DNA from: a virus
IMG/VR virus record: IMGVR_UViG_3300048573_000442
Direction: 5' to 3' (one strand)
Length of the DNA stretch: 64,000 nucleotides
Shown: piece by piece, positions 2,674 to 27,088 of the stretch
Layout of the letters: each line of letters starts with the position of its first letter
How positions within the stretch are numbered: position 1 is the stretch's first letter
Made by a program: the position numbers and the translations under genes
The notes under the pieces: generated by a model
The model's database searches: none
What the model was told of the DNA's origin: nothing
Seen by the model: the letters and a program-made list of their open reading frames with translations, nothing else

Positions 2674-2681
2674 TATAAATA
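2674..2681 (+). promoter_or_regulatory. T4 late promoter TATAAATA driving the LRR array
   Basis: Exact T4 late consensus 43 nt upstream of the first array ATG. Confidence 0.75.
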
Positions 2682-2723
2682 AGGAAATGCAATAATTTAC
2701 TGACGCTTGCCACGGGGAATAAA

Positions 2724-3368
2724 ATGAAATTAAAACAATTATTTGAATCTACATCTAAACAAGAAGTTGAAACAGTCTTAAACAGGTACGGGATTGAGAA
2801 CTACACCATCAATGATGACTTGTCCGTGGATGTCGATGGAGATGTTGATCTAAGTGAAAATAAGTTGAGTTCGATTCCTGTCAATTTTGGGAAGATCAGT
2901 GGAATTTTTGACTGCTCTAACAACCTGCTAACCTCTTTACAAGGAGCACCAAGAGAAATAGGCGGGTATTTCGGTTGCTCTGGTAACCAATTAGCCTCCT
3001 TACAAGGAGCACCAAGAGAAGTCGGTGGGGGCTTTAAATGCTCTGATAACAAATTAGCTTCTTTGCAGGGTGCGCCAAAAGAAGTAGGCGGGCATTTTTG
3101 GTGCTATCATAACCAATTAACCTCTTTGCAAGGCGGGCCAAGAGAAGTTAATGAGGGTTTTGATTGCTGTTATAACAAACTGACATCTTTACTGGGCGCG
3201 CCTAGGGTAGTAGGCTGGCATTTCAATTGCTTTAAAAACCGATTAACCTCTTTGCAAGGTGCACCTAGAGAAGTAGGCGGGGAGTTTAATTGCCGTTTTA
3301 ATCCAAAATTGACCTCACTTGACGGAATTGGCAATGTTGCCGGACAAATTAAAAGCGACCTATCATGA
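2724..3368 (+). CDS. LRR-like 21-aa repeat protein 1 (7 repeats)
   Basis: MKLKQLFES leader, NYTINDDLSVDVDGDVDL N-cap, xFxCxxN repeats, LDGIGNVAG C-cap. Confidence 0.9.
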   Translation: MKLKQLFESTSKQEVETVLNRYGIENYTINDDLSVDVDGDVDLSENKLSSIPVNFGKISGIFDCSNNLLTSLQGAPREIGGYFGCSGNQLASLQGAPREVGGGFKCSDNKLASLQGAPKEVGGHFWCYHNQLTSLQGGPREVNEGFDCCYNKLTSLLGAPRVVGWHFNCFKNRLTSLQGAPREVGGEFNCRFNPKLTSLDGIGNVAGQIKSDLS

Positions 3369-4018
3369 AATTAAAACAATTATTCGGATTCTCGTTTTCG
3401 ACCTCAAAAGAAAAAGTTGAAAACGTTCTTAAGAAATACAAAATCACAAACTATACAATCAATGACGATCTGTCTGTTGATGTGGATGAGGATATAGATT
3501 TTCGTGGTTCAAATTTAAAAAGATTTCCAATCAAATTTGGCAAAATAAAGGGAAATTTTAATTGTTCTAACACCCAGTTGGAAACGCTTAAAGATGGCCC
3601 GAATGAAGTCAGCGAAAACTTTTACTGTCACAATAACCAATTAGTATCTTTGGAAGGTGCGCCAAAAGAAGTGGGCGGGAGTTTTTGGTGCATGAAGAAC
3701 GAATTGATTTCTTTGAACGGTTCACCAAGGGAAGTAGGCGGGGATTTCAACTGCGACTTAAACCGACTAGCATCCTTACGGGGGGCCGCGCGTGAAGTGG
3801 GTGGCGCATTTGGCTGCGAGAGTAATGAACTGCAGACTTTGGAAGGATGCCCTCGCATTGTAGGCGGGGATTTTTATTGCTCTAAAAACAAATTAACATC
3901 TTTGCACGGCGCACCTAGAGAAATTGGCGGGGATTTTAATTGCCGTTTTAATCCAAATTTGACCTCACTTGACGGGATCGGCAATGTTGCCGGAGAAATT
4001 GAAAGCGATCTATCATGA
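3365..4018 (+). CDS. LRR-like repeat protein 2 (7 repeats, most divergent)
   Basis: Same caps and repeat; MKLKQLFG leader. Confidence 0.9.
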   Translation: MKLKQLFGFSFSTSKEKVENVLKKYKITNYTINDDLSVDVDEDIDFRGSNLKRFPIKFGKIKGNFNCSNTQLETLKDGPNEVSENFYCHNNQLVSLEGAPKEVGGSFWCMKNELISLNGSPREVGGDFNCDLNRLASLRGAAREVGGAFGCESNELQTLEGCPRIVGGDFYCSKNKLTSLHGAPREIGGDFNCRFNPNLTSLDGIGNVAGEIESDLS

Positions 4019-4788
4019 AATTAAAACAGCTGTTTGAATCAGTGTCTAAACAAGATGTGGAATCCATCTTAAAGAAATACGGGATTAAGAACTATACCAT
4101 CAATGATGACATGTCAGTCGATGTTGATGGGGACGTGAAGCTAAATAATAATCACTTAAGTTCGATTCCTGTTAATTTTGGGAAAGTAAGTGGGCATTTT
4201 TGGTGTCATAAAAACCAATTAACTTCTTTACAAGGTACACCTAAAGAAGTCGGTAAGGATTTTGATTGTTCTCACAACCAATTAACTTCTTTACAAGGTG
4301 CTCCTGGGGAAGTTGGTGGCGGCTGTTTTAATTGCCACAACAACAAATTGACCTCTTTACAAGGTGCACCTAGAGAAATTGGTGGAAGTTTTTGGTGCGC
4401 TGATAACAAATTAACTTCTTTACAAGGCGGGCCAAGAGAAGTCGATGGGAGTTTTTCGTGCGCTAGTAACCAATTGTCCTCTTTACAAGGCGCTCCAAGA
4501 GAAGTTGGTGGGCATTTTTATTGCTCTAAAAACAAATTGACCTCTTTACAAGGTGCTCCTAGAGAAGTTGATGGGCATTTTTATTGCTCTAACAACCAAT
4601 TAACTTCTTTGCAAGGTGCTTCAAGAGAAGTTGGCGGAGGGTTTTGGTGCCATAATAACCAATTAACTTCTCTACAAGGCGCACCTAAGGAAGTCGGTGG
4701 GGATTTTAATTGCTCTAACAATCCGAATTTGGCATCACTTGACGGAATCGGCAATGTTGCCGGGCACATTTTTAGCAATCTATCATGA
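4015..4788 (+). CDS. LRR-like repeat protein 3 (9 repeats)
   Basis: Same caps and repeat. Confidence 0.9.
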   Translation: MKLKQLFESVSKQDVESILKKYGIKNYTINDDMSVDVDGDVKLNNNHLSSIPVNFGKVSGHFWCHKNQLTSLQGTPKEVGKDFDCSHNQLTSLQGAPGEVGGGCFNCHNNKLTSLQGAPREIGGSFWCADNKLTSLQGGPREVDGSFSCASNQLSSLQGAPREVGGHFYCSKNKLTSLQGAPREVDGHFYCSNNQLTSLQGASREVGGGFWCHNNQLTSLQGAPKEVGGDFNCSNNPNLASLDGIGNVAGHIFSNLS

Positions 4789-5492
4789 AATTAAGGCAAT
4801 TATTCGAATCTACATCTAAGCAAGATGTAGAATCCATCTTAAACAAATATAAAATAGCAAACTACGCTATCAATGATGACTTATCAGTAGATGTCGATGG
4901 AGATGTGGATCTGAGTAATAAGAAGTTAAGTTCGATTCCTGTTAATTTTGGGAAAGTAAGCGGAATTTTTGACTGCTCTAACAACCTGCTAACCTCTTTA
5001 CAAGGCGCACCTAGGGAAGTTGGTGGTGATTTTAATTGCTCTTATAGCCAGTTAACTTCCTTACAGGGTGCTCCTACCATAGCCTATGGTAATTTTATTT
5101 GCTCTGCCAACCAATTAACATCTTTGGAAAGGGCACCTAGGGAAGTAGGTGGGGATTTTATTTGCTCTAATAACCGTTTGATTTCTTTAAAGGGTGCACC
5201 TAGAGAAGTTGGAGGGCATTTCAGTTGCGCGCGTGCCAAACTGACATCTTTAGAAGGTGCACCTAGAAAAGTAGGTGGGAATTTTTGGTGTGTTAGCAAC
5301 CAATTGCCCTCTTTACAAGGCGGGCCTAAAGAAGTTGGTGGGGATTTTAACTGTAATAGTAACAAATTGACCTCTTTACAAGGCGCACCAAGAGAAGTTG
5401 GTGGGAGTTTTTGGTGCCGCAACAATCCGAATTTGACCTCACTTAACGGAATCAGTAATGTTGGCGGAGACGTTTTTAGCGACATAAAATGA
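4785..5492 (+). CDS. LRR-like repeat protein 4 (8 repeats)
   Basis: Same caps and repeat. Confidence 0.9.
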   Translation: MKLRQLFESTSKQDVESILNKYKIANYAINDDLSVDVDGDVDLSNKKLSSIPVNFGKVSGIFDCSNNLLTSLQGAPREVGGDFNCSYSQLTSLQGAPTIAYGNFICSANQLTSLERAPREVGGDFICSNNRLISLKGAPREVGGHFSCARAKLTSLEGAPRKVGGNFWCVSNQLPSLQGGPKEVGGDFNCNSNKLTSLQGAPREVGGSFWCRNNPNLTSLNGISNVGGDVFSDIK

Positions 5493-6265
5493 AATTAAAA
5501 CAATTATTTGAATCAGTTGCAGTCCCTAAACAAAAAGTTGAATCCATCCTTAAAAAATACAGGATCGAGAATTACGCCATTAATGATGACTTGTCAGTAG
5601 ATGTCGATGGAGATGTGGATCTAAGCTACAAGAAGTTAAGTTCGATTCCTGTCAATTTTGGGAAGGTTAGTGGCAGTTTTTATTGCTCTGACAACAAATT
5701 GACTTCTTTAGAAGGTGCACCGAGAGAAGTCAGTGGGGATTTTGATTGCACTCATAACCAATTAACTTCTTTACAAGGTTCACCTAGAGAAGTAGGCGGG
5801 CATTTTTACTGCTATCATAACCAATTAACTTCTTTACAGGGTTCACCTAGGGAAGTCAGCGGACATTTTTGGTGCTATAGCAACCAATTAACCTCTTTGC
5901 AAGAAGGTCCTAGAGAAGTCGGAGGGAATTTTAATTGCTCTGATAACGAATTGGTAACCATGCAAGGTTCACCTAGGGAAGTAGGCGGGCATTTTAACTG
6001 CTCTACCAACAAATTGACTTCTTTACAAGGTGCACCTAAAGAAGTAGGTGGGGATTTTAGGTGCTCTGGCAACCAATTAACATCTTTGGAAAGGGCGCCT
6101 AGAGAAGTTGGTAAGGATTTTATTTGCTCTGATAACAAATTAACTTCTTTACAAGGCGCACCTAGAGAAGTTGGTGGGCATTTTTTTTGCTACAACAACG
6201 TAAATTTAAAATCACTTGACGGAATCGGTAATGTAGCCGGAGAAATTGAAAGCGACCTATCATGA
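5489..6265 (+). CDS. LRR-like repeat protein 5 (9 repeats)
   Basis: Same caps and repeat. Confidence 0.9.
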   Translation: MKLKQLFESVAVPKQKVESILKKYRIENYAINDDLSVDVDGDVDLSYKKLSSIPVNFGKVSGSFYCSDNKLTSLEGAPREVSGDFDCTHNQLTSLQGSPREVGGHFYCYHNQLTSLQGSPREVSGHFWCYSNQLTSLQEGPREVGGNFNCSDNELVTMQGSPREVGGHFNCSTNKLTSLQGAPKEVGGDFRCSGNQLTSLERAPREVGKDFICSDNKLTSLQGAPREVGGHFFCYNNVNLKSLDGIGNVAGEIESDLS

Positions 6266-6969
6266 AATTAAAACAATTATTTGATTCAACTTCTAGACAA
6301 AAAGTTGAATCTATCCTGAAAAAATATAAAATAACGAACTACGTCATTAACGACGACTTGTCTGTAGATGTCGATGGGGATGTGGATTTGGATAGTAAAC
6401 GCCTAAGTTCGATTCCTGTTAATTTCGGAAAAGTTAGTGGGAGTTTTGATTGCTATAAAAACAAATTGACCTCTTTACAAGGTGTTCCGAGAGAAGTCGG
6501 TAAGGGTTTTGATTGTTCTCATAACCAATTAACATCTTTACAAGGTGCGCCTGGGGAAGTTGGTAGGGATTTTAACTGCTCTCATAACCAATTAACTTCT
6601 TTACAAGGTTCACCTAGGGAAGTCAACAGACATTTTTGGTGTTCTCACAACCAATTAACTTCTTTGCAAGGAGCACCTAGAGAAGTAGGTGAGCTTTTTA
6701 CTTGCGCTAATAACCAATTAACATCCTTACAAGGTGCACCTAGAGAAGTCGGTGGAGAGTTTTACTGCTATGGTAACAAATTGACCTCTTTGCAGGGTGC
6801 TCCTAGAGAAGTTGGCGGAGGGTTTTGGTGCAATAATAACGAATTGACCTCTTTGCAGGGTGCTCCTAGAGAAGTTGGTAAGGATTTTTGGTGTGGCAAA
6901 AATCCGAATTTGAAATCCCTTGACGGAATCGGCAATGTTGCCGGAGAAATTAAAAGCGACATAAAATGA
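6262..6969 (+). CDS. LRR-like repeat protein 6 (8 repeats)
   Basis: Same caps and repeat; MKLKQLFD leader. Confidence 0.9.
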   Translation: MKLKQLFDSTSRQKVESILKKYKITNYVINDDLSVDVDGDVDLDSKRLSSIPVNFGKVSGSFDCYKNKLTSLQGVPREVGKGFDCSHNQLTSLQGAPGEVGRDFNCSHNQLTSLQGSPREVNRHFWCSHNQLTSLQGAPREVGELFTCANNQLTSLQGAPREVGGEFYCYGNKLTSLQGAPREVGGGFWCNNNELTSLQGAPREVGKDFWCGKNPNLKSLDGIGNVAGEIKSDIK

Positions 6970-7622
6970 AATTAAAACAACTATTTGAATCAGTTGCAGC
7001 CCCTAAACAAGAAGTTGAATCTATCCTAAAGAAATATGGTATCGAAAACTACACCATAAATGATGACTTGTCAGTAGATGTCGATGGAGATGTGGATCTA
7101 AGTAATAAACACCTAAGTTCATTTCCAGTGAATTTCGGAAAAGTTAGCGGGAGTTTTGATTGCTCTGACAACAAATTGGCAACTTTAGAAGGCGCACCAA
7201 GAGAAGTCGGCGGGGATTTTATCTGCTCTTCCAACAAATTGGCCTCTCTAAAAGGAGCGCCTAGAGAAGTCAGCGAGATTTTTAATTGCTCTTATAACCA
7301 ATTAACTTCTTTGCAAGGAGCGCCTAGAGAAGTGGATATAGATTTCATTTGCTCTTATAACAAATTAGCTTCTCTAAACGGCTCGCCAAGGGAAGTCGGT
7401 GGGAGCTTTTATTGCTTTAAAAACCAATTAACATCGCTAAAAGGAGCTCCTTGGGAAGTCAGCGAGAATTTTGATTGCTCTGACAACAAATTGACGACTT
7501 TAGAAGGCGCACCTAGAGAAATAGGTGGAAATTTTTATTGTTATGATAACCCAGATTTAAAATCCCTTGATGGAATCGGTAACGACAGCGTTGCCGGAGA
7601 AATTGGAAGCGACATAAAATGA
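6966..7622 (+). CDS. LRR-like repeat protein 7 (7 repeats)
   Basis: Same caps and repeat. Confidence 0.9.
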   Translation: MKLKQLFESVAAPKQEVESILKKYGIENYTINDDLSVDVDGDVDLSNKHLSSFPVNFGKVSGSFDCSDNKLATLEGAPREVGGDFICSSNKLASLKGAPREVSEIFNCSYNQLTSLQGAPREVDIDFICSYNKLASLNGSPREVGGSFYCFKNQLTSLKGAPWEVSENFDCSDNKLTTLEGAPREIGGNFYCYDNPDLKSLDGIGNDSVAGEIGSDIK

Positions 7623-8515
7623 AATTAAAACAATTATTTGAATCAACTTCTGGACAAGAAGTTGAATCTATCCTAAAGAAATACGGTATCGAAAACTACA
7701 CCATAAATGATGACTTGTCAGTAGATGTCGATGGAGATGTGGAGTTAAATAATAATAGCTTAAGTTCAATTCCTGTCAATTTTGGGAAAGTTAGCGGCAG
7801 TTTTAATTGCCTTTTTAACAAACTGGCTTCTTTGCAAGGCGCACCAAGAGAAGTCGATGGAGATTTTATTTGCTCTCATAACCAATTAACTTCTTTACAA
7901 GGCGCGCCAAGAGAAGTCGGAGGGAATTTTTATTGCTATCACAACAAATTAACTTCTTTGCAAGGTGCTCCTGGGGAAGTTGGTGGAAATTTTTATTGCT
8001 ATCGCAACAAATTAACCTCTTTGCAAGGTGCATCTAGGGAAGTGGGTGGGAGTTTTGATTGCTCTGAAAACCAATTAACATCCTTACAAGGTGCACCGAG
8101 AGAAGTAGGCGGGGCTTTTAATTGCTCTGGCAACCAATTAACATCCCTACAAGGTGCACCTAGGGAAGTAGGTGGAAGTTTTTATTGTTATCACAACAAA
8201 TTAACTTCTTTACAAGGCGCATCTAGGGAAGTTGGTAGGGTTTTTGATTGCTCTTATAATGAATTAATGTCCTTACAAGGTGCACCTAGAGAAGTGGGTG
8301 GGAATTTTGTTTGCTCTCATAACCAATTAACTTCTTTGCAGGGTGCACCGAGAGAAGTTGGCGGGAGTTTTTATTGCGGTAGCAATCATTTGTCCTCTTT
8401 GCAAGGAGCTCCTAGGGAAGTTGGTGGAAATTTTTATTGCTCCAAAAATTCAAATTTGTCCTCACTTGACGGGATCGGCAATGTAGCCGGAGAAATTGAA
8501 AGCGACATTAAATGA
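7619..8515 (+). CDS. LRR-like repeat protein 8 (11 repeats)
   Basis: Same caps and repeat; 298 aa = 235 + 3x21. Confidence 0.9.
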   Translation: MKLKQLFESTSGQEVESILKKYGIENYTINDDLSVDVDGDVELNNNSLSSIPVNFGKVSGSFNCLFNKLASLQGAPREVDGDFICSHNQLTSLQGAPREVGGNFYCYHNKLTSLQGAPGEVGGNFYCYRNKLTSLQGASREVGGSFDCSENQLTSLQGAPREVGGAFNCSGNQLTSLQGAPREVGGSFYCYHNKLTSLQGASREVGRVFDCSYNELMSLQGAPREVGGNFVCSHNQLTSLQGAPREVGGSFYCGSNHLSSLQGAPREVGGNFYCSKNSNLSSLDGIGNVAGEIESDIK

Positions 8516-8548
8516 AATTAAAACTGTCAGTTGCAACCTCTAAACATG
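8512..8548 (+). pseudogene. remnant 5' end of a ninth LRR array unit
   Basis: ATGA overlap then ATGAAATTAAAAC-TG-TCAGTTGCAACCTCTAAACA, matching the unit 5/7 start (atgaaattaaaacaattatttgaatcagttgcagtccctaaaca) with a deletion; no repeats follow. Confidence 0.65.
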
Positions 8549-8557
8549 TTCAGCAAC

Positions 8558-9406
8558 TTATTTCATGTGTTCCGAAAGGTCTTGCCAACTTTTAATTTCG
8601 GGATTAGTTTCTACCAGCTTACGCATTTTGTCCCACACGTTTTGCGGGATAACAATTGCGCCGCCGTCAAACCATACTTCCTGATGTTTCTCTGAATGTC
8701 TAAGAGTTGCTGGAGTACACGCATGCATTTGCAGTTTAGAAGGTGAGTATGCGTCTAAAATTGTTTCTAAAAAATGTTTACGGAAATCGTCGTTCTGCAA
8801 CAGTTCCGAATAATCACTTTGTTGTATTCGTTCGTATGCTTCGCTATCTACATCGCGTATTTGCACATCGAACTGTTCCAGCGATTCAAATGGGTCAGTT
8901 CCTGTGTCCAGTCCTGTATTCAGACCTGTCTCTACAAAGGCAGCCAAATAATCATTCATTTCATTAATTGGTTCCAAATTTCCAAAAAGATCAATAATCT
9001 TTTCCCAGATGTCAAGATCGCCGACTTCTCCGATTTTTGCGTTTTTAACCGGGAGCACAATGTATCTCTCATCGCCAAAACCCTTAGCGTAGGCTAAATT
9101 TGTAGTGCATATCATTGATTGACTTCGCTTAGGAAAATCTTTCATCTCTGGGTGATTATCGAAAATGGTTGTGTACCAATTGGATGTATTTTGGCTTTTG
9201 CGTTTTGTCTTTGTCAAATCAACATAGGAAAAACCTAAACCAGCTCTCATGCCCCGATAGAATGGCTGCTGTTCTTTGAGCATCCAGAATAAATCTGGGC
9301 AATGTTCGTTCAAGTAAAAGGTGATAGGACGAGTAGTAAGCGGTTCAAACACCTGTTTAAGTGAACCTTCTGCTTTTGCTTCTAAGAATGTTTTAAATGT
9401 TTTCAT
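8558..9406 (-). CDS. putative ADP-ribosyltransferase-like protein (R-S-E type), capsid-targeting-like leader
   Basis: MKTFKTFLEA; FYRGM, SMICTT..YAKGFG, QEVWF motifs. Confidence 0.55.
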   Translation of the reverse strand: MKTFKTFLEAKAEGSLKQVFEPLTTRPITFYLNEHCPDLFWMLKEQQPFYRGMRAGLGFSYVDLTKTKRKSQNTSNWYTTIFDNHPEMKDFPKRSQSMICTTNLAYAKGFGDERYIVLPVKNAKIGEVGDLDIWEKIIDLFGNLEPINEMNDYLAAFVETGLNTGLDTGTDPFESLEQFDVQIRDVDSEAYERIQQSDYSELLQNDDFRKHFLETILDAYSPSKLQMHACTPATLRHSEKHQEVWFDGGAIVIPQNVWDKMRKLVETNPEIKSWQDLSEHMK

Positions 9407-10247
9407 TTTTCATAGCTTCCGATAAATCTTGCCAATTTCTAATTCGTTTTTTGCTTGATCTATACATACTTCTCATTTTGTTCCATTCGTCTAATGGAAT
9501 AATAATGGCACCAGTATCAAACCACACCTCATGCCCTATATAAGTCAGTTCTTCGATTTCGCCAAATGCGGACCCATCAATCCGCAGCACTTTCGGCGAA
9601 TACGCCTTCAAAATTGATTCCAAGAACAAATTTGTAAATTCGGTCTTCTCTAATAGGGACGAATATTTGCTGTTTTTAAGTCTTTGAAAAACTTGGCTAT
9701 TTACATCTTTTATTTGGCGGTCAAATTCCTGCAGAAGCCCAAACGAGCATTTTTCTGTTTTTAGTCCACATTGAATGATTCCGGAAAAGAAATCATTCAT
9801 TGTTTTTATTTCTACTTCATCCCCAAAAATTTTAATCCAAAGGTCCCAAATGTCCGACACGTAAATTTCTGCTACTTTAGCATTTTTAACTGGCAGGATA
9901 GCATATACCTGACTTCCAAATCCATGTGCATAATCGAAATCGGTGGTACAAATCATAGACTCGCTTCTTTTCGGGAGATGACTCATTTCAGGATGATTGT
10001 CAAATATTTCCGTGTACCAATTAGAAGAGTTTTGGCTTTTACGTTTTGTCCCTGTCAAATCAACAAATGAAACACTTAGACCTGATCTCATGCCACGGTA
10101 CAGAACTGCTTTCTCCGTCAGCGCCCAGAACGTATCGGGGCAATACTTATTTAGGTAGTAGGCAGCTGGATGTTCCGTAAGGGGCTGATACACTAGCGAA
10201 GCAGAACCTTCTGCTTTTGCTTCTAGGAATGTTTTAAACGTTTTCAT
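9393..10247 (-). CDS. putative ART-like paralog
   Basis: MKTFKTFLEA; LYRGM, SMICTT..YAHGFG, HEVWF. Confidence 0.55.
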   Translation of the reverse strand: MKTFKTFLEAKAEGSASLVYQPLTEHPAAYYLNKYCPDTFWALTEKAVLYRGMRSGLSVSFVDLTGTKRKSQNSSNWYTEIFDNHPEMSHLPKRSESMICTTDFDYAHGFGSQVYAILPVKNAKVAEIYVSDIWDLWIKIFGDEVEIKTMNDFFSGIIQCGLKTEKCSFGLLQEFDRQIKDVNSQVFQRLKNSKYSSLLEKTEFTNLFLESILKAYSPKVLRIDGSAFGEIEELTYIGHEVWFDTGAIIIPLDEWNKMRSMYRSSKKRIRNWQDLSEAMKNENI

Positions 10248-10825
10248 AGTACGGTTCCTTTAACAATTGAATTAATTGCGTTTATAACAGTTGAATGTTG
10301 AACAACTTCAAAATGGTTTGTCGCTAATAGCAATTCATCCGTTGGCTTTACGCATCTTTGGGATTTTACTGATACAACTCCATCATTAGCATTAGCCATA
10401 AACGGCGATCCTCCGCCAGTAGTTACTACATTTAGCCAACGGCATGGAGGAATTATATTTCTCGAGTATGCAACTGAATTGCTATAAGGTGCTAAATCTT
10501 TCATGACTAGCAATTTTGGAAATGCATAACGTAAAAAGGCAGCAGCGTTATGCCCGCCGAACGGTGTTGATATCGTAATAATTCCGACAACATTTGGGTC
10601 TTCGCAGGCGATACGATGTGCCAAAATTCCACCCAAACTATGTGCAACAATAAAGTATTTTTGGGAAAGTTCTTCATGCTTAATAGCGTTATGCACGCTG
10701 TCGATTGATTGCGTGCTGTCGTATTCAGCAACAATTGGAATATGATCTTGTATCTGGGAAATAATGTGATTAAACACAATTCCAGAGCTATTAAATCCGT
10801 GAATGTAAAGAATTGTGGGTTTCAT
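10244..10825 (-). CDS. alpha/beta hydrolase (lipase/esterase-like)
   Basis: YIHGF oxyanion loop, AHSLGG nucleophile elbow, ISTPFGG, NDGVV, NHF. Confidence 0.85.
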   Translation of the reverse strand: MKPTILYIHGFNSSGIVFNHIISQIQDHIPIVAEYDSTQSIDSVHNAIKHEELSQKYFIVAHSLGGILAHRIACEDPNVVGIITISTPFGGHNAAAFLRYAFPKLLVMKDLAPYSNSVAYSRNIIPPCRWLNVVTTGGGSPFMANANDGVVSVKSQRCVKPTDELLLATNHFEVVQHSTVINAINSIVKGTVL

Positions 10826-11072
10826 TTAGGATGTTATGTTCGGGTATTGTTAATTTGCCAGCAGAGATTAGATCTCTTCTAATGACTATTAGTCTAGTCA
10901 ATTCTTTAGACAAATGGGATATTTGATCTGAAGTTGATTGGCGATTATATTTTTGAACGTATTTGTTAATCGCATCTTGAGTCATATAGTTAATGACATC
11001 GGAGTAATGATTTATCCGTTCGCTATCAACCACAAAAGCGGTTTTAACTTTTTCAGTAATAATCTTTGACAT
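10791..11072 (-). CDS. hypothetical protein
   Basis: 93-aa ORF overlapping both neighbours in a dense operon. Confidence 0.55.
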   Translation of the reverse strand: MSKIITEKVKTAFVVDSERINHYSDVINYMTQDAINKYVQKYNRQSTSDQISHLSKELTRLIVIRRDLISAGKLTIPEHNILNETHNSLHSRI

Positions 11073-11835
11073 GTTTCTGTAAATCTTGCCAATCGTCTAT
11101 ATTGATAATGACTGCGCCTTTATCAAACCAAACTTCCCCCTGAATTATTTTCGAGGATTCAAGTGTTGCGGTAGTTTTTGCCAGTAGGCCAGTTTTTCTA
11201 GGAGAATATGCATCAAATAATTCTTTAAGAAAATCGCTTGAAATGACACGTTTATATTTTTCGGCAAAACGCAATCTTTCAATAATTTCACCGTTTTTAT
11301 TTTTTAGGGCTTCATCGAATTTTACCAATGCATTAAAACAGGATTCATCTTCTTCATCATAATCAAGCAGGTTTTTTAAAAAATAATTTGCGTCGATCAG
11401 TGAAAGCGATTTCCCGAATAGGGTTGTCCTAAGATCCCACATGTCCTGTTCGCCAACTAAACCTATTTTTGAACCGTTTACAGGAATCACTGCAAATACT
11501 GATCCAAACGCACTTGCATAACCTTTAGATGTGGAGCAAATTATAGATTTGCTACGTTTGGGAAAGTCCTGCATTTCGGGGTGATTATCAAAAATTTCAG
11601 TATAAAAATTATTGGTGTTTTGGCTTTTCCTGGCCGTCCTTGCCAAATTGACAAAAGCAGGAGGATGATCCCATTGTAGCTTCCCGAATCCCCGATAAAA
11701 TGGTTTATCTTGCTCGATCATCCATAAAGAATCAGAACAATGCCTTTTTAGAAATTCGTGTATGTGATCAATTGGTTCAAATACCTGTTTAGGCGAATCT
11801 TCCGCTTTTGCTTCTAAGAAAGTTTTAAATTTCAT
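11053..11835 (-). CDS. putative ART-like paralog
   Basis: MKFKTFLEA; FYRGF, IICSTS..YASAFG, QGEVWF. Confidence 0.55.
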   Translation of the reverse strand: MKFKTFLEAKAEDSPKQVFEPIDHIHEFLKRHCSDSLWMIEQDKPFYRGFGKLQWDHPPAFVNLARTARKSQNTNNFYTEIFDNHPEMQDFPKRSKSIICSTSKGYASAFGSVFAVIPVNGSKIGLVGEQDMWDLRTTLFGKSLSLIDANYFLKNLLDYDEEDESCFNALVKFDEALKNKNGEIIERLRFAEKYKRVISSDFLKELFDAYSPRKTGLLAKTTATLESSKIIQGEVWFDKGAVIINIDDWQDLQKHVKDYY

Positions 11836-12808
11836 TTTTCAATTTCTCACTGATAAAGTGGGCGACAGATTTAGTCACTAAAATCACAGGACCGCCAATC
11901 CATAATTCTGTCGTACAGTGAAGGTCAAATAAACTAGAGGGCATATTAGCCGTAGTAAAAACTGTATGCTCTGTTGCCTCCGCAGAATATGCTTCCCAAA
12001 TATGATCCAAGAAATGATCCAAGCATTCCGTCGGTGCATTATTAAAAACACTCATGAAAAGCGCAACTGCCGGTTTATTCCTATCCTTCAGTAGTCTGTC
12101 GAATTCTTGAAAACTTTCAAGCGTCTGTTTCAATTTTAAAGCTTCAAACAAATGATTAAAGTGTTCGATATTCCGGTGGGTCCCGAAAAGATTGATTCGG
12201 GTTTGCCACATATCATCATTATTCACTGCACCCATTTTTACTCCATTAAATGGAATAACAACAATATCCTCTCCTTTTGCAGTACTTCCATAACCACTTG
12301 CAATTTTCGGACATGTAGTTGCTATGAAAGAGGCGCTGCGTTTGGGGAAATGGGCCCTTTTTGGATTAGCATCCAAAAGCATATTATAGAAGTTGCCAGC
12401 GCTAATGCTCTTCCTAGAAGTCAACGTCGGATCTGAAACAACTGCACCTGTTGCTAATAGATCGGCCTTCGGGCTTTGGCCGGAAATGCCTCGCCATATA
12501 AACTTTGCGTCCTTTAGAAACGGGACAAAATCTGACGCCTTTTGGCGAATGAGATCTAAGGTTTCATCAAGGGGTTTAGGTTCATAAACAGGCTTTGATT
12601 CCTTTAAGAACTCTGAGAATCTTAAACCTTCTTTTAAGCCCATCATTCGTTTAGTTATTGCCATTCTAAGTGCCCAATGTCTAGGATCATTTTTATCATA
12701 GTCGTATTCAGAACTGATAATTTCTTCAGCTTTATCCCAAAGATGTTCTGCTCTATCAAGAGGTATTTTTGCTTTTTTAGCTAAATGTTTTAGTGCAGTA
12801 AGTGGCAT
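11825..12808 (-). CDS. putative ART-like paralog with extra N-terminal helical domain
   Basis: About 60-aa basic N-domain, internal LRFSEFLKE, then IWRGI, FIATT..IASGYG, TELWI. Confidence 0.5.
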   Translation of the reverse strand: MPLTALKHLAKKAKIPLDRAEHLWDKAEEIISSEYDYDKNDPRHWALRMAITKRMMGLKEGLRFSEFLKESKPVYEPKPLDETLDLIRQKASDFVPFLKDAKFIWRGISGQSPKADLLATGAVVSDPTLTSRKSISAGNFYNMLLDANPKRAHFPKRSASFIATTCPKIASGYGSTAKGEDIVVIPFNGVKMGAVNNDDMWQTRINLFGTHRNIEHFNHLFEALKLKQTLESFQEFDRLLKDRNKPAVALFMSVFNNAPTECLDHFLDHIWEAYSAEATEHTVFTTANMPSSLFDLHCTTELWIGGPVILVTKSVAHFISEKLKNEI

Positions 12809-12809
12809 T

Positions 12810-13466
12810 TTAAAAGTCAGGAAATTGTGGAGGTGGGGCGAAATTTGACGTGTATCTTGCTATTCCACTAGTAAACCTGAAATCGTCAATATATCCAGTA
12901 AAATATTTTGAAACAGATGTATATGCACCAAGTTGGAAATCTCCAGTTGCAAAATCAGTGTTTGCAACTGATGCCACCAAAATGCCATTTTGGTACAATC
13001 GAGTATTTGGGGAATCCAAAACGACCGCAACATGAACCCATTCATTTATTGGCAATGGAGCATTTGCTGTCGCCAAAACGGGAACGACATTTCGTTTGCC
13101 TATAACAAGATTTCCGCTTATTGTTTCCAATGTCAGCCCGCTACCGCTAACAGAAAAAAGAATCCCGACGTCAGAGGCAACGGTTTTATAAAGCCAGAAT
13201 TCAATCGTAAACTTGCTACCAAATAATGACATCGTATTTGACGGTCTAGTCAAATACGATGAGCCGTTTAAATATAGGGACGCTGCGCCAAATTGTTTTT
13301 CTGAGCTACTAATAACTGGGGCCCCAATGCCCGTCCAAACTCCACTTGCCGAATCACCAAAGTTTGAATCAAAGCGTAATAGGCTGATTACGTTAGTCCA
13401 AAATGGATCTGGTGGTTGTGCAGTTGATTGGTAAATTGCGCGGATGAGAACTGAAATGTCTAGCAT
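12810..13466 (-). CDS. LamG/concanavalin A-like lectin domain protein
   Basis: DPFWTNVISLLRFD, FTIEFW, EWVHVAVV, FTGYIDDFRFTSGIARYTSNF; start moved to the internal Met at 13466. Confidence 0.8.
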   Translation of the reverse strand: MLDISVLIRAIYQSTAQPPDPFWTNVISLLRFDSNFGDSASGVWTGIGAPVISSSEKQFGAASLYLNGSSYLTRPSNTMSLFGSKFTIEFWLYKTVASDVGILFSVSGSGLTLETISGNLVIGKRNVVPVLATANAPLPINEWVHVAVVLDSPNTRLYQNGILVASVANTDFATGDFQLGAYTSVSKYFTGYIDDFRFTSGIARYTSNFAPPPQFPDF

Positions 13467-13473
13467 AATTAGT

Positions 13474-13956
13474 TTATTCTTTATTAAAGTCGTCCCAAAT
13501 TTCTTTATCTGCTTTTCTAGCAGGCCCGCCAACAATAAACGAATTCACTCGAGCCATCGCCCATTGTGCTTGGGCAACACCCGGTCTATGCCCAGTTCTC
13601 CAAGCTGCAGAACCCTTATTGAACACTCGCCGTAAAATAGATACGGGAATTCCTGTTTTTTCAGACTTATTCTTGAGCGCAACGTCAATATTTGAAGACT
13701 CGCCAAACAGCTCTTCATACTTTTCAGTATGTTCGCTTTTTGGTATAGATTTTCCTGCCGACTTCAACTGTTTCTTATATTTCCTATCAGCGGTCCAGTT
13801 GTCAGGATAAGCTTTTGGATCTTTATGGTCAAGACGTTTAAACTTATCAATTTCTTTTGACATCTCTTTTTTCAGGGGAGGTTTGTTTTTTGCCCCCTTA
13901 AAATCCAAATACTTTGGATTTGTCTCAGAAATGAACTGTTTAAACGTTATCGTCAT
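13474..13956 (-). CDS. conserved phage protein (DUF5824-like), capsid-targeting-like leader
   Basis: MTITFKQFISE; ALKNKSEKTGIP..L..VFNKG.AAWRTGHRPG...QWA.ARVNSF motif recalled from T4-like phages and giant viruses. Confidence 0.6.
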   Translation of the reverse strand: MTITFKQFISETNPKYLDFKGAKNKPPLKKEMSKEIDKFKRLDHKDPKAYPDNWTADRKYKKQLKSAGKSIPKSEHTEKYEELFGESSNIDVALKNKSEKTGIPVSILRRVFNKGSAAWRTGHRPGVAQAQWAMARVNSFIVGGPARKADKEIWDDFNKE

Positions 13957-13958
13957 GA

Positions 13959-14213
13959 TTATTTTGCTGGCTTAACAACGTCTTTAAACACTACGCCTTC
14001 AGAACCATCCCATTCGCCGACGCCGATAGTCTCCTTGCGCTTATACGGCTTAGTTCCAATGAAAGCATTGCAGATGTCCTGGTCTCCATCAAACCAAGCA
14101 CCTGGCTGATATTTGCGAACGGCAGTTTTCCATGAACTATAAGTCGTGTAAACAGTTTCCCCCATATGGTTCTTTGCTTCTTTAAGATTTACTAGTTGTT
14201 TTAGTAATTGCAT
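13959..14213 (-). CDS. hypothetical protein
   Basis: MQLLKQLVNLKE leader; GATAAATA upstream. Confidence 0.7.
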   Translation of the reverse strand: MQLLKQLVNLKEAKNHMGETVYTTYSSWKTAVRKYQPGAWFDGDQDICNAFIGTKPYKRKETIGVGEWDGSEGVVFKDVVKPAK

Positions 14214-14242
14214 TTTTGTGCCTCTATTGGTTAAATGTATAT

Positions 14243-14539
14243 TTATCTCTTGTCGTAATTAACGTGTATTACTTTTGCTTTAATTACGCCAAGGCCCTGA
14301 AGTATATGTTTTTTCAACCGCAATGTCAACTTTTCAGACAGGTCTTTTTGAAAGCCTAGATCCCTAGGTCTGTCTGCACAATCCGTCCTGAACTCTATAA
14401 CAGTTTGTGGCCCCTCATCTAATAAATGGATGCTAAAGATCTTACAAGCAATGAGTTCTTCTTCAGCAATGTGGTGCAGCATGTTTTCCCATTTTTTAAG
14501 GTGTTCTTCACGCTTAAGGAATTCTTTAAATGTCTTCAT
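14243..14539 (-). CDS. hypothetical protein
   Basis: MKTFKEFLKREE leader; ATGA-coupled to upstream gene. Confidence 0.7.
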   Translation of the reverse strand: MKTFKEFLKREEHLKKWENMLHHIAEEELIACKIFSIHLLDEGPQTVIEFRTDCADRPRDLGFQKDLSEKLTLRLKKHILQGLGVIKAKVIHVNYDKR

Positions 14540-15186
14540 AAAATTTCTGCCAATCTTGGTTTAATGACATCATAAAATAGATTGCTTAAAGTATCTATTT
14601 TGTAATACTGCTTGCATTTCAAATGAATTTCATTGCCGTTATCGATGCATTCTTCAAGCTCTTCATTTACATTCCATCTAGCGTGTGAAAATTTTTTAAC
14701 TAGCATGTCTGCTGCCATAGTCTGACGCTGATCATAGTTGTATTGGTTTTCTTTATCAGCTGCGAATATTTTGCCAGATAAATAGGCTGAAGAGCCGTAT
14801 GCGTCTTTAAATGCGTCCTTGCCCGTATCAGCATTACAAACCCATTGAAATTCCCCAATTGGGAAAATAGCAAATACCTTTCCGTATTGTCTAGCATCGT
14901 TTTGTTGACCAGTAACAAACATCCAATTTCGAATAGGCTCGCCGACTAAATCAACAAAAAAATCATTCATTTTATCATGCAAGTACGTGCTTGAATCCCT
15001 AGGCCCGCCACGTAGCCTAAAATCCCTGATCTCCCAATCGGCAGACCCTCCAGATTCAGAGCCGCGATACATCAATTTGTTTCCGCCGGTTCCTTTTAGT
15101 TGCTTAAATAAAAATGAGCAGTCTTCTTCAAATCGTTTAAGATCAAAAGATTTTTGTTCGTTTAGGAAAGTTTTAAATGTTTTCAT
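14536..15186 (-). CDS. putative ART-like paralog
   Basis: Start moved to MKTFKTFLNE (15186); MYRGS, MFVTG...ARQYG, NEIHL. Confidence 0.45.
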   Translation of the reverse strand: MKTFKTFLNEQKSFDLKRFEEDCSFLFKQLKGTGGNKLMYRGSESGGSADWEIRDFRLRGGPRDSSTYLHDKMNDFFVDLVGEPIRNWMFVTGQQNDARQYGKVFAIFPIGEFQWVCNADTGKDAFKDAYGSSAYLSGKIFAADKENQYNYDQRQTMAADMLVKKFSHARWNVNEELEECIDNGNEIHLKCKQYYKIDTLSNLFYDVIKPRLAEIL

Positions 15187-15880
15187 ATTTAACCCATGGG
15201 TCGTTGATGACAATAGTTCCGTCTTCAGCAATCATAAAATTGCTGCTGTGTAAATCGTTTTGGAACCCGTTCTTGCGCCCAATTTGGACGACATCGAATA
15301 TAGTAGAGGCCAATTTAACTAATTGCTGTTGGCCCATATGGAGTATGAGGTACTCCAAACCTGATGAAATCTCTAGTGCTGTTCTCGTAAAAAACATTTT
15401 GCCTTTTCTTGCAAACAGCGACTGATTATCAATTTCTAAGGCAGCTGGATGTTCTATATAGGTCGTAACAGCTTTAAGATATTCGATCTTTTTGTTGTTA
15501 AATGCGTCTACCTCTGTTGATAAGAACCCAAGTGCGATGCCAGTGTGTTCTGATATAGAACCCATCTCAAAAAGGCGTTCAGATTTTGCTATTAGCACCT
15601 TGGTGCCAGTCTCTGAGTTAACAATTGTTTCCGGGGCGCCAATATCAGGGATAAATTGGTTATTTTTATTTGCCAAACAGTATTTTAGCCACTTGACAAA
15701 TACGCTTGACCTCGAATCGTTTAGTGGACCGATCGCCAACAACACTTCATGTTTTTCATTCATCCAGACCGTCTTATCATATCCACTAGCTTCCATGAAA
15801 TAGCCGCGATCCCTCATTAGATGAAACAACCAAGAACTATCATCAGGTGAAAAATCAGATTCAAATAGGCGATGTTTCAT
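15173..15880 (-). CDS. protein kinase-like (T7 gp0.7-like) 1
   Basis: Start MKHRLFE (ATGA-coupled); ASGYDK, YC..NKNNQFIPDI, DLHSSNFM, INDPW. Confidence 0.75.
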   Translation of the reverse strand: MKHRLFESDFSPDDSSWLFHLMRDRGYFMEASGYDKTVWMNEKHEVLLAIGPLNDSRSSVFVKWLKYCLANKNNQFIPDIGAPETIVNSETGTKVLIAKSERLFEMGSISEHTGIALGFLSTEVDAFNNKKIEYLKAVTTYIEHPAALEIDNQSLFARKGKMFFTRTALEISSGLEYLILHMGQQQLVKLASTIFDVVQIGRKNGFQNDLHSSNFMIAEDGTIVINDPWVKYENI

Positions 15881-16605
15881 TTGTACCATCCATCGGCTTT
15901 CTTTACAAGTACCTCTAATGGGATGATATTTGGCGACAAATATTTCTCAGCCTCTTCTCGCATCTGTTTTAAATATCTTTTCCCTACAGGATTTTTCAAA
16001 GGCTCACTAAAAAACCCCTGAACAGATTTAAAAATTTTCAAGATGGCTTTGTCGTCAAGGGCGCCATCATTTTCAACCTGCTTAAAAAAATCAACTTTCG
16101 CCTGTAGAAACTTTGCGTTTTCCAAATTGACTTCACTGACTTTGCGAATAAATTCTGCGTCAACTTTTCGTCCAGAAATATCAGTTCGAGATTTTGCCCT
16201 TTTAAGAGATGTTTCCAAGCTTGCGTGAACAAACACTACTCCTACATCATATCCTATAGATTCAAGAATGCCTATGCGATGCAATATTTGGGAAACATTA
16301 TTCGAAGTGCTATCAACAAACAGTGGCAGCATCGAATTCATATAGCCTGTTAAAGATTTTTTTGTGATTTTAATCGATGAATCTCTTAATTCGGGCCACG
16401 TTTCAGAGGATACTTCCTTATCAAGTTTAAAGGCCATGAATTCGGTTGCAATGTCAGTATTGACTACTTTTGGGGAAATTTGCCCCCTTAGGTTCCTGAC
16501 TGTGTAACTCTTGCCGGCACCTGGCAAGCCAATCACGAAAACAGCTTTAAGAATGCCAGCATCATTAATGCCTTCTGTTATGTAGGTTTTGAAATTTGTT
16601 GTCAT
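15877..16605 (-). CDS. P-loop kinase (AAA_33/zeta-toxin-like)
   Basis: VFVIGLPGAGKS Walker A, VNTD, FVDST, R..SR lid; MTTNFKTYITE leader. Confidence 0.75.
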   Translation of the reverse strand: MTTNFKTYITEGINDAGILKAVFVIGLPGAGKSYTVRNLRGQISPKVVNTDIATEFMAFKLDKEVSSETWPELRDSSIKITKKSLTGYMNSMLPLFVDSTSNNVSQILHRIGILESIGYDVGVVFVHASLETSLKRAKSRTDISGRKVDAEFIRKVSEVNLENAKFLQAKVDFFKQVENDGALDDKAILKIFKSVQGFFSEPLKNPVGKRYLKQMREEAEKYLSPNIIPLEVLVKKADGWYK

Positions 16606-16609
16606 AATT

Positions 16610-17290
16610 TTAAAAGGATGCCCATGGATCGGTGATAACTAAAGTGCCGTCTGAAGCAATCATAAAGTTACCGGAATGTAAATCTAGAAAGCCGCTGCTA
16701 GGAGTTGCATTAATAATATCTATTAAAGTTCCTAGCAAAAAGTCAAAATCCTCGACGCTTAACACCAATAGCGCCATGCTTTCGGTAATATCCCCACTTG
16801 CTTCTAATCTAGCTTTTGCGTCCGCAATGACTTTTGATTTTAGGTCTTTTTGTAAAATGCTAGTAGAGCCAATAGCACTAGTGCAAGCTTTCACAAGTTC
16901 ATGAATTGCTTCTCGTATCTGGCTGAGTTCGGAAGAGACTTCAAACAAGCGTTCGATGTTGGCGACGATAAACTTCTCACCGCTTATAGTAAGTGGTTTT
17001 GAAAAACTAATATTTGGTAAATGGGGATTGGATGAATGTTGAAAACAAAAACTTACCCACTTTTTGAAATTGGCTGTTTCCCTATAGCTTTCGTCATGTT
17101 GGATTATTTTGACGTTATGTGTTTTTGGATTAACAAATGCTGCTTTAAAAGCGCCAGCTCTCAAAAATTTGTAACCTAAGCCTTTCATATGTTCTAAAAG
17201 AATGCTGCTTCTTCTAGATTCATCATTAAAATCCTGTTCTTCTGTGCTGATGGACTCGACCAAATATTTTTTGAAATTGCGCGCCATCAT
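16610..17290 (-). CDS. protein kinase-like (T7 gp0.7-like) 2
   Basis: MARNFKKYLVE; RAGAFKAAF, VK, FC.QHSSNPHLPNI, DLHSGNFM, ITDPW. Confidence 0.8.
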   Translation of the reverse strand: MMARNFKKYLVESISTEEQDFNDESRRSSILLEHMKGLGYKFLRAGAFKAAFVNPKTHNVKIIQHDESYRETANFKKWVSFCFQHSSNPHLPNISFSKPLTISGEKFIVANIERLFEVSSELSQIREAIHELVKACTSAIGSTSILQKDLKSKVIADAKARLEASGDITESMALLVLSVEDFDFLLGTLIDIINATPSSGFLDLHSGNFMIASDGTLVITDPWASF

Positions 17291-17985
17291 TATGCCCATG
17301 GGTCAGTTATGACTATTGTTCCGTCTTCGCCAAGCATGAAATTTCCTGGATGCAAATCGAGAATTGAGTTACTAGGTGAAAAATCAATAATGTCTATTAT
17401 GGTCCCTATCAAAGAATCGATATCTTCAACACTTAATAGCAGTAATGAATGAGCATCATTTTCAAATTCGTCATTGGAGCCAAAATTTTCAAGAGAGCTT
17501 TTTATTTCAGCTATTAATTCGTCTCGGGGTTTATTTTTGCCGCCGCTCGAAGCTCTTGATGTTTCGCATAAATCCGCAATTTCAGTCAACGCGAAACCGA
17601 TAGAAACAATACTAGAACTGTCTATCGAAAATAGTCTTTCAATGGTGGCAATCTGAAACACATGCTTCGTGCCATCTTCACCTCCTATTTTTAACGGGCG
17701 ATCAAGTTTTATAATCGGGAGATGCGGGTTGTTCTTATGTTGTTTGCAAAAATCTATCCAGCGAGTAAAAGTACTAAATGAAGCTGGATTATTCTTGTAC
17801 AAAATTATTTTTGTCGAGCTAGAATCCATATACGCAGCTTTTTCAACCCCACTGCCGAGAAATTTGAACCCGTTTAGAACCATATATTTGTGCAAAGCAA
17901 AAGCACGTTCGCGATCAGCGAAACTCCCCGATCTCAAATACTTGGGGGCTTCATGGCTTTCGGCTAGAAAATGTTTAAAGTTCAT
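17290..17985 (-). CDS. protein kinase-like (T7 gp0.7-like) 3
   Basis: Start moved to MNFKHFLAE; LGSGVEKAAY, FCKQHKNNPHLP, DLHPGNFM, ITDPW. Confidence 0.8.
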   Translation of the reverse strand: MNFKHFLAESHEAPKYLRSGSFADRERAFALHKYMVLNGFKFLGSGVEKAAYMDSSSTKIILYKNNPASFSTFTRWIDFCKQHKNNPHLPIIKLDRPLKIGGEDGTKHVFQIATIERLFSIDSSSIVSIGFALTEIADLCETSRASSGGKNKPRDELIAEIKSSLENFGSNDEFENDAHSLLLLSVEDIDSLIGTIIDIIDFSPSNSILDLHPGNFMLGEDGTIVITDPWA

Positions 17986-18028
17986 TTTAATGGGAATGTA
18001 ACATTCAGTTAAGTTTGCGCTATCCACT

Positions 18029-27073: not shown

Positions 27074-27088
27074 GATTTCCTATTTAGT

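What the first reader, a model, noticed from the sequence alone, without database searches (positions are those of the whole stretch)
2724..8515. Translationally coupled tandem array of eight 21-aa LRR-like solenoid genes
Seen: eight head-to-tail paralogs, each joined by an ATGA overlap, sit under one TATAAATA late promoter on the strand opposite their neighbours. They share N- and C-caps but carry 7-11 copies of a 63-bp repeat, and lengths step by about 21 aa (214, 235, 298). Inference: a gene accordion producing a library of solenoid binding proteins late in infection. I cannot tell from the sequence whether this family has been characterised.
Basis: partly seen in the sequence, partly recalled or inferred. 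Interest (0 to 1): 0.88.

Follow-up and report, generated by a model that had tools for sequence, protein, structure and literature searches.

The report
Head-tagged LRR binder gene array
A giant T4-related phage carries eight back-to-back late genes (ten in the window) for small leucine-rich-repeat binding proteins that differ mainly on their binding face. Each starts with a short peptide resembling the tag phage T4 uses to load proteins into its head, so they are probably packed into the particle and injected into the host; no experiment has tested this.

Summary
Eight + strand genes (2724-8515; 214-298 aa) are joined by seven ATGA overlaps, lie 43 nt downstream of a TATAAATA, and face opposite to their neighbours. 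Each has constant caps around 7-11 units of 21 aa (63 bp).

The fold is a leucine-rich-repeat solenoid with Cys and Asn ladders (AlphaFold pLDDT 94). The nearest solved relative is internalin J. Variation is concentrated at four concave-face positions.

- Two more members sit inside the neck operon.
- The phage has T4-type late sigma, head protease and capsid genes.
- The first 8 residues (MKLKQLFE) are predicted unfolded and are missing from bacterial homologues.
- These residues resemble the T4 capsid-targeting sequence, and seven unrelated gene families in the window carry a similar tag.

Best reading (about 0.45): late, head-loaded, injected binders.

"Gene accordion" is only partly right. 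Copy number differs between relatives (3 versus 8), but the copies are old and diverged. A diversity-generating retroelement and an assembly artefact are both rejected.

The family is large in metagenomes, and I found no paper describing it. This scan has already reported similar tagged LRR arrays on other phage DNA.

The parts
2674..2681 (+). TATAAATA, a T4-type late promoter element 43 nt upstream of the first ATG
   Evidence: All 5 copies in the window lie in non-coding DNA upstream of a gene on the same strand. A gp55-type late sigma factor is present.
2714..2718 (+). GGGGA, a Shine-Dalgarno-like site 5 nt before the first ATG. Genes 2-8 have GGAG only at about -22.
2724..3368 (+). LRR gene 1, 214 aa, 7 units
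3365..4018 (+). LRR gene 2, 217 aa, 7 units. The most divergent copy; orthologous to the first gene of the array in relative L004.
4015..4788 (+). LRR gene 3, 257 aa, 9 units (one unit of 22 aa)
4785..5492 (+). LRR gene 4, 235 aa, 8 units
5489..6265 (+). LRR gene 5, 258 aa, 9 units
6262..6969 (+). LRR gene 6, 235 aa, 8 units
6966..7622 (+). LRR gene 7, 218 aa, 7 units
7619..8515 (+). LRR gene 8, 298 aa, 11 units. This is the protein that was modelled.
8512..8524 (+). Vestige of a ninth gene start (ATGAAATTAAAAC) overlapping the stop of gene 8
27089..27550 (-). Family member N1, 153 aa, same tag. Lies between a virion protein gene and the sheath-stabiliser gene, with an ATGA overlap to the upstream gene.
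29419..29946 (-). Family member N2, 175 aa, same tag. Lies between the head-tail adaptor gene and a virion protein gene. It is 97% identical to the copy in a related phage fragment.
41445..42059 (-). T4 gp21-type prohead core serine protease (Peptidase_S77), the candidate enzyme for removing the tag
   Evidence: E = 1.6e-24.
55566..56135 (-). T4 gp55-type late sigma factor
   Evidence: phrog_234, E = 3.2e-28.
8558..18928 (-). Neighbouring island of genes from unrelated families. Most start with a similar tag (MKTFKTFLEA, MTITFKQFISE, MNFKHFLAE and others).

Best explanation
The array encodes small, signal-peptide-free LRR binding proteins.

Proposed expression: they are made late from one polycistronic message. 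A T4-type late promoter drives it, gene 1 starts from its own ribosome-binding site, and genes 2-8 start by termination-reinitiation at the ATGA overlaps.

Proposed structure: each protein has three parts.
1. An 8-residue N-terminal tag, MKLKQLFE.
2. A short linker that varies in length.
3. A constant N-cap, 4-11 Cys-ladder LRR units and a constant C-cap.

Proposed route: the tag acts like the T4 capsid-targeting sequence. It takes the protein into the prohead core, and the phage's gp21-type protease cuts it after Glu8 (L-F-E|S). The mature binders stay in the head and enter the host with the DNA.

Proposed function: inside the host, their differing concave faces bind different host proteins, most plausibly variable defence proteins. 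T4 IPI* does this for the GmrSD restriction enzyme.

Shown here: gene structure, LRR fold, position of the variation, presence of late sigma, protease and capsid genes, and the presence and portability of the tag.
Inferred: packaging, cleavage, injection and the targets.
For: Fold
- The AlphaFold model of gene 8 has pLDDT 94.1 and pTM 0.88.
- All top Foldseek matches are LRR proteins: YopM, SspH1/2, IpaH3, SDS22, VLR, InlJ.
- A profile of the family matches InlJ (3bz5) at E = 1.9e-21 with the Cys columns aligned, then SspH1 and IpaH.

Binding face
- In 64 units, F1, C3 and L8 are invariant and N6 occurs in 61 of 64.
- Entropy is high only at unit positions 21, 2, 4 and 5, which are x3, x5, x7 and x8 of LxxLxLxxN. 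These positions are rich in W, Y, H, D and N.
- In one orthologue-like pair, 22 of 28 such sites differ with 1 synonymous-only change. Elsewhere there are 34 amino-acid changes and 36 synonymous-only changes (Fisher p = 4e-5).

Tag
- Residues 1-8 have pLDDT below 50 while the rest is above 90.
- A variable-length linker follows the tag.
- The first 26 nt are identical in copies that are otherwise 67% identical.
- Bacterial homologues keep the N-cap but lack the tag.
- A similar hydrophobic-K/R-x-hydrophobic-hydrophobic-(x)-E peptide heads 17 of 73 ORFs in seven unrelated families, against 7 of 1126 internal 16-aa windows (motif defined after the fact). These families include kinase-like and Zeta-toxin-like proteins.
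- The neighbour at 8558 also has an unfolded tag, residues 1-17.
- T4 IPII and IPIII start MKTYQEFIAE and T4 Alt starts MELITELFDE. The IP peptide is the known capsid-targeting sequence, cut once by the head protease (bioRxiv 10.1101/2021.01.19.427310; PMC3012670; PMC5694885).

Machinery
- Peptidase_S77, E = 1.6e-24, and Gp23 capsid protein, E = 1.2e-91.
- Late sigma factor, E = 3.2e-28.
- All three near-complete phage records that carry LRR arrays give an S77 match, two of them above the family cut-off.

Context
- The array lies in a variable island between the TerS and TerL genes.
- Two members lie inside the neck operon.
- Arrays in other jumbo phages carry different but similar tags, such as MKLQELFLKEE and MKRISNYKTFINES.
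Against: - No virion proteomics or cleavage data exist for this phage or any close relative.
- The tag match to T4 is short (about 4-5 of 8-10 residues), and my motif was defined after seeing the data.
- The proteins are acidic to neutral (pI 4.6-7.5), unlike the basic T4 internal proteins.
- A conserved, flexible N-terminal peptide could instead dock the protein onto a virion part, or serve translation initiation.
- The position of two members among neck genes fits a structural role just as well.
- No target is known.
Confidence: 0.45

Rival explanations
1. Virion-surface adhesins. The LRR proteins attach to the neck, collar or capsid exterior, with the N-terminal peptide as a docking strand, and broaden or tune host or surface binding.
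For: Two members are encoded between the head-tail adaptor, a virion protein and the sheath stabiliser. In T4 the whisker gene lies in this region (my own knowledge). Expression appears to be late. LRR modules are proposed host-recognition parts in phage Goslar (bioRxiv 10.64898/2026.04.21.720040). A variable concave face would suit variable surface receptors.
Against: There is no anchoring or oligomerisation domain beyond a roughly 50-aa cap. The same kind of tag heads kinase-like and Zeta-toxin-like enzymes, which make sense only inside a cell. One buried Cys per repeat and the absence of a signal peptide say nothing either way.
Confidence: 0.2
2. Late cytoplasmic binders that are not packaged. 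They act in the infected cell, for example by blocking host defence or proteases late in infection, chaperoning assembly or excluding superinfecting phages. The conserved N-terminus would then serve translation re-initiation or stability.
For: The first 26 nt are conserved at the DNA level, including synonymous sites. This fits an RNA-level role in coupled translation. The fold and the variable face only imply binding.
Against: Other jumbo phages use different codons and different residues but keep the same peptide pattern. Unrelated genes that are not translationally coupled share the pattern. Bacterial homologues lack the tag.
Confidence: 0.2
3. Programmed hypermutation. A diversity-generating retroelement writes the variable codons (adenine mutagenesis of AAY codons).
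For: The variable codons are mostly NNY.
Against: Third-codon positions of invariant framework residues vary just as much (0.5-0.7 diversity), so the divergence is general and not targeted. TGG occurs 11 times at a variable position, and AAY mutagenesis cannot produce TGG. There is no near-identical template repeat: the longest exact block is 59 nt and lies in the cap. The NNY pattern follows simply from the preference for D, N, H, Y and S. None of the ORFs scanned against PHROGs, Pfam or NCBIfam matched a reverse transcriptase, but the window was not scanned exhaustively.
Confidence: 0.02
4. Assembly artefact, or non-coding satellite DNA that happens to be open.
For: The DNA is repetitive, and repeat-derived open frames also appear on the antisense strand.
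Against: The copies are well diverged and so assemble unambiguously. Framework residues are conserved while synonymous sites vary. The model is confident. More than 5,500 homologues are found, and independent contigs carry similar arrays.
Confidence: 0.01

Closest known systems
Listeria monocytogenes internalin J (InlJ, PDB 3bz5), the 21-residue cysteine-ladder LRR
   Same: Both have a 21-residue unit with Cys replacing the second core Leu (LxxLxCxxNxL). It is the best sequence match among solved structures (E = 1.9e-21) and the best NCBIfam hit.
   Different: InlJ is a secreted, cell-wall-anchored bacterial surface protein of about 850 aa (846-position NCBIfam model) with other domains. The phage proteins are 153-298 aa and have no signal peptide or anchor. 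Their loop is a fixed G-A-P-R-E-V-G-G and their caps differ. The NCBIfam score (41 bits) is far below the family cut-off (1700).
T4 internal proteins IPI, IPII, IPIII and Alt (capsid-targeting sequence, cut by the gp21 protease, injected with the DNA)
   Same: Both have a short N-terminal peptide of the same pattern (T4 MKTYQEFIAE and MELITELFDE versus MKLKQLFE), ending in hydrophobic-x-E before a small residue. The phage has gp21-type protease and gp23-type capsid genes. The genes lie in a variable island, and unrelated cargo shares the tag (PMC3012670).
   Different: The cargo is an LRR family in ten copies, acidic rather than basic. Packaging and cleavage have not been shown. The tag is 8 residues long, not 10.
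Bacterial type III effector LRR domains (YopM, SspH1/2, IpaH, SlrP)
   Same: Both are short 'bacterial-type' LRRs with an NxLTSL motif that are delivered into another cell to bind its proteins. These are the top fold matches and they also match by sequence.
   Different: The effector units are 20 residues with an LPxLP loop and no Cys ladder. Most are fused to an E3 ligase domain and are delivered by a secretion system into eukaryotic cells.
Jawless-vertebrate variable lymphocyte receptors (VLR)
   Same: Both have constant caps around a variable number of LRR units, with variation concentrated at concave-face positions rich in aromatic and polar residues. A VLR structure is among the fold matches.
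   Different: VLR diversity is assembled somatically from cassettes. Here the repertoire is fixed in the genome as separate genes, and I saw no sign of active cassette exchange in this window.

Membership tests
Leucine-rich repeat (LRR) superfamily | Tandem units carrying LxxLxLxxN/CxL | tested here: met
   64 units read (V)xxxFxCxxNxL. F, C and L are invariant and N occurs in 61 of 64. Pfam LRR_4 matches at 42.6 and 31.3 bits for two genes, above the 27-bit cut-off.
Leucine-rich repeat (LRR) superfamily | Curved solenoid with a parallel beta-sheet on the concave side | tested here: met
   Model pLDDT is 94.1. Short strands recur every 21 residues. Foldseek probability is 1.00 to many LRR structures.
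InlJ-type cysteine-ladder LRR | 21-residue unit with Cys at the second core position | tested here: met
   The HMM alignment to 3bz5 places Cys on Cys.
Internalin family (class 1 internalin InlJ) | Signal peptide, inter-repeat domain and cell-wall anchor; full-length similarity | tested here: not met
   The N-terminus is MKLKQLFES with no hydrophobic stretch, and the proteins end 15-20 residues after the last unit. The NCBIfam score is 40.8 bits against a cut-off of 1700.
T4-type capsid-targeted internal proteins | N-terminal 10-20 residue targeting peptide resembling MKTYQEFIAE, outside the folded domain | tested here: met
   MKLKQLFE has pLDDT below 50. T4 sequences were read. The similarity is short.
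T4-type capsid-targeted internal proteins | Phage encodes a gp21-type prohead protease and builds a gp23-type head | tested here: met
   Peptidase_S77, E = 1.6e-24. Gp23, E = 1.2e-91.
T4-type capsid-targeted internal proteins | Same tag on otherwise unrelated cargo proteins | tested here: met
   Seven unrelated families in the window carry it.
T4-type capsid-targeted internal proteins | Protein present in the mature head, with the tag removed after Glu | not testable with these tools
   Needs virion mass spectrometry.
Diversity-generating retroelement target | Reverse transcriptase plus a template repeat that differs from the variable repeat only at adenines | tested here: not met
   There is no near-identical template, and variation is equal at synonymous framework sites.

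The most novel reading that the evidence does not exclude
Jumbo T4-superfamily phages carry a genome-encoded repertoire of LRR 'antibody-like' binders that are preloaded in the capsid and injected ahead of gene expression. Each paralogue would neutralise a different variant of host immune proteins. This would be a binder-library form of counter-defence whose composition turns over between closely related phages.
Probability: 0.2. Interest if true: 0.85.

Novelty: new variant of a known kind. Interest (0 to 1): 0.6.

Why it matters
LRR binders and T4 head-targeting tags are each well known. I found no paper describing a phage that combines them into a diversified multi-copy set; three full-text searches pairing LRR with jumbo/huge phages, ejection proteins or the cysteine ladder turned up none.

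If the proteins are packaged and injected, they would be first-minute weapons whose targets could reveal host defence or takeover points.

The family would also offer small, stable, naturally diversified binder scaffolds and a short portable tag for loading cargo into large phage heads.

The family is large: more than 5,500 metagenomic relatives, and arrays of 3 to 14 genes in other jumbo phage contigs.

One virion mass-spectrometry experiment on any cultured carrier would settle the main question.

Tried and rejected
- Diversity-generating retroelement: rejected.
- Assembly artefact or recent amplification: rejected. Units are about 71% identical and the longest shared block is 59 nt.
- Active cassette exchange inside this window: no long identical blocks between repeat regions.
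- Near-identical phage in GenBank: none found.
A single protein was used instead.
- ADP-ribosyltransferase reading of the neighbouring paralogues: Foldseek found nothing significant. VIA-align gave mostly ART-fold proteins, but only at Z 3-5.6, so this is inconclusive.
- PHROG and Pfam gave no name for the scaffold candidates.
- Literature searches for LRR together with jumbo or huge phages, ejection proteins or the cysteine ladder found no description of this family. Matsushima et al. 2021 on LRRs of dsDNA viruses (cited in PMC10945359) is not held and was not read.


Full report
**1. What is there**

The window is part of a jumbo myophage of the T4 superfamily.
- The terminase large subunit is closest to Ralstonia phage RsoM2USA (45%), then PA5oct, XacN1 and Atu_ph07.
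- The window encodes a gp23-type capsid protein and a gp21-type prohead protease.
- It also encodes portal, sheath, tube, neck and head-completion proteins and a gp55-type late sigma factor next to gp46/gp47 homologues.
- No near-identical phage is in GenBank, and the assembly itself is not held.

The eight ORFs are exactly as described.
- All seven junctions read ATGA.
- Only gene 1 has a well-placed Shine-Dalgarno (GGGGA, 5 nt upstream). Genes 2-8 have GGAG about 22 nt upstream, so their translation probably depends on termination-reinitiation.
- A 13-nt copy of the conserved gene start overlaps the stop of gene 8. This is a footprint of a lost ninth copy.

TATAAATA lies 43 nt before gene 1. 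The motif is not over-represented in the window (5 found, 3.1 expected). However, all five copies fall in the 5.6% of the window that is non-coding (0.056^5 = 5.5e-7), each upstream of a gene on the same strand. One of those genes is the prohead protease. With gp55 present, late transcription is a sound inference.

**2. The proteins**

In protein register, each has these parts in order:
- MKLKQLFE(S)
- a 3-8 residue linker that varies in length
- a constant N-cap
- 7-11 units, counted by their F-x-C motifs and including the C-cap unit (4-5 in the two extra members)
- a constant C-cap, NPxLxSLDGIGNVAGEIxSD

Across 64 internal units, the consensus is F-x-C-x-x-N-x-L-T-S-L-Q-G-A-P-R-E-V-G-G-x. 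F, C and L are invariant and N occurs in 61 of 64. High entropy is confined to four positions that map to x3, x5, x7 and x8 of LxxLxLxxN, the solvent-exposed concave strand by established LRR geometry. These positions are rich in W, Y, H, D and N.

AlphaFold gives a confident solenoid (pLDDT 94.1, pTM 0.88). Foldseek returns only LRR proteins at the top. A family profile hits InlJ (3bz5) at E = 1.9e-21 with Cys aligned to Cys, then SspH1 and IpaH. Pfam gives only weak LRR_4 matches, the PHROG families are of unknown function, and NCBIfam gives InlJ far below its cut-off.

**3. Age and mode of variation**

Units are about 71% identical in DNA, both within and between genes. Third-codon diversity at invariant residues is 0.5-0.7, and first- and second-position diversity at the four variable codons is equally high. 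N-cap DNA identity between genes is 64-89%, and the longest exact shared block is 59 nt.

The copies are therefore old. The framework is under purifying selection, and the concave face is free or driven to change.

In an orthologue-like pair from two related contigs (L029 and L004, both 215 aa):
- 22 of 28 concave-face sites differ, with one synonymous-only change.
- Elsewhere there are 34 amino-acid changes and 36 synonymous-only changes (Fisher p = 4e-5).
- Repeat shuffling could contribute to this signal.

A retroelement mechanism is excluded on these data.

**4. Relatives and copy number**

A contig whose terminase is 89% identical (L004) has the same slot, between the same paralogous neighbours and TerL. 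It holds only three LRR genes, and one of them is broken or ambiguous in the assembly.

An N-cap tree pairs window gene 2 with the first L004 gene (support 96/76). It places the other seven window genes with those of a different phage (L030, eight genes) and not with the remaining L004 genes, but most branches are weakly supported.

Other jumbo-phage contigs carry arrays of 14, 11, 5, 4 and 3 genes. More than 5,500 metagenomic proteins match. Some carry the same LRR module behind a dUTPase, a PcfJ-like domain or an unknown domain of about 250 aa.

Bacterial genome bins and one complete Halarcobacter chromosome also encode homologues.

**5. The tag**

Several independent observations point the same way.
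- (a) Residues 1-8 are the only low-confidence part of the model.
- (b) An indel-rich linker follows them.
- (c) Bacterial homologues keep the N-cap helix and strands but start without the tag.
- (d) LRR arrays in other phages have different caps but similar heads, such as MKLQELFLKEE, MKRISNYKTFINES, MKYIKKYQLFE and MRFKEYITEE.
- (e) In this window a similar head opens seven unrelated families, 17 of 73 ORFs, against 0.6% of internal 16-aa windows (motif chosen after the fact). The families are:
  - a five-member paralogue family, three of whose members match the motif;
  - three T7 gp0.7-like kinase paralogues;
  - a Zeta-toxin/AAA_33-like kinase;
  - a DUF5824 protein;
  - two further families, plus the LRR family itself.
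- (f) The model of one neighbour also leaves its first 17 residues unfolded.
- (g) The capsid protein itself starts MELFEN.

T4 IPII and IPIII start MKTYQEFIAE and T4 Alt starts MELITELFDE. The former is the capsid-targeting sequence, removed by one cut of the head protease, and it loads any fused protein into heads (10.1101/2021.01.19.427310; PMC5694885). T-even internal proteins are described as a diverse set of anti-restriction proteins that share only this tag (PMC3012670).

All three near-complete LRR-array phage records give an S77 protease match, two of them above the family cut-off.

**6. Reading**

I put about 0.45 on 'late, head-loaded, tag-cleaved, injected binders'. About 0.2 each goes to surface adhesins and to unpackaged late binders. 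The main weaknesses are the shortness of the tag match, the acidic charge of the proteins and the complete lack of particle data.

**7. Relation to earlier work in this scan**

Earlier notes on other genomes report the same kind of LRR array, InlJ as the nearest structure, and T4-like tags on many cargo genes. I reached the InlJ match, the tag and its controls with my own calls on this window. The earlier notes are not independent evidence, but they do show that the scan has found this theme before.

Noticed in passing
window 8558-18928 and 22404-23216 (- strand): Island between the TerS and TerL genes. It holds five paralogues (phrog_12810), three T7 gp0.7-like kinase paralogues, a Zeta-toxin/AAA_33-like kinase, a DUF5824 protein and others. 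Most start with a T4 capsid-targeting-like peptide (MKTFKTFLEA, MTITFKQFISE, MNFKHFLAE, MTQFRQFLTE). The fold of the 8558 family is weakly ART-like (Z up to 5.6), which is inconclusive.
   Followed up: partly
window 589-2580 (-) and L004:4223-7507: TerL in the window has about 140 extra residues (about 165-305) that the 89%-identical relative lacks, with a weak intein-splicing hit at 283-309. This may be a mini-intein. In the relative, TerL is instead split by a 405-aa ORF at a different site.
   Followed up: partly
window 8512-8524: A 13-nt vestige of a ninth LRR gene start overlaps the stop of gene 8. It suggests a deletion or unequal crossover at the conserved gene start.
   Followed up: yes
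window 27072-27380 (+), 2801-3052 (-), 5084-5485 (-) and others: The antisense strand of the LRR repeats is also open and repetitive (for example ...PTSLGAPCKE...). This is most likely a by-product of the repeat and not a gene.
   Followed up: no
window 35340-36845 (-): A 501-aa HNH/homing endonuclease gene lies among head-region genes.
   Followed up: no
window 19375-19857 and 19860-20300 (-): Two adjacent paralogues of the head-closure (gp4-like) protein, 42% identical.
   Followed up: no
P0029, P0033, P0034, P0054; L047 (Halarcobacter CP182347.1): The same 21-aa LRR module is fused to a dUTPase or a PcfJ-like domain in metagenomic proteins. Tag-less 499-aa versions occur in bacterial chromosomes.
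   Followed up: partly
window 29419-29946 versus L028: The neck-embedded copy N2 is 97% identical to the copy in a related phage fragment, with 1 change in 20 concave-face sites. The two phages are too close overall for this to say much about selection.
   Followed up: partly
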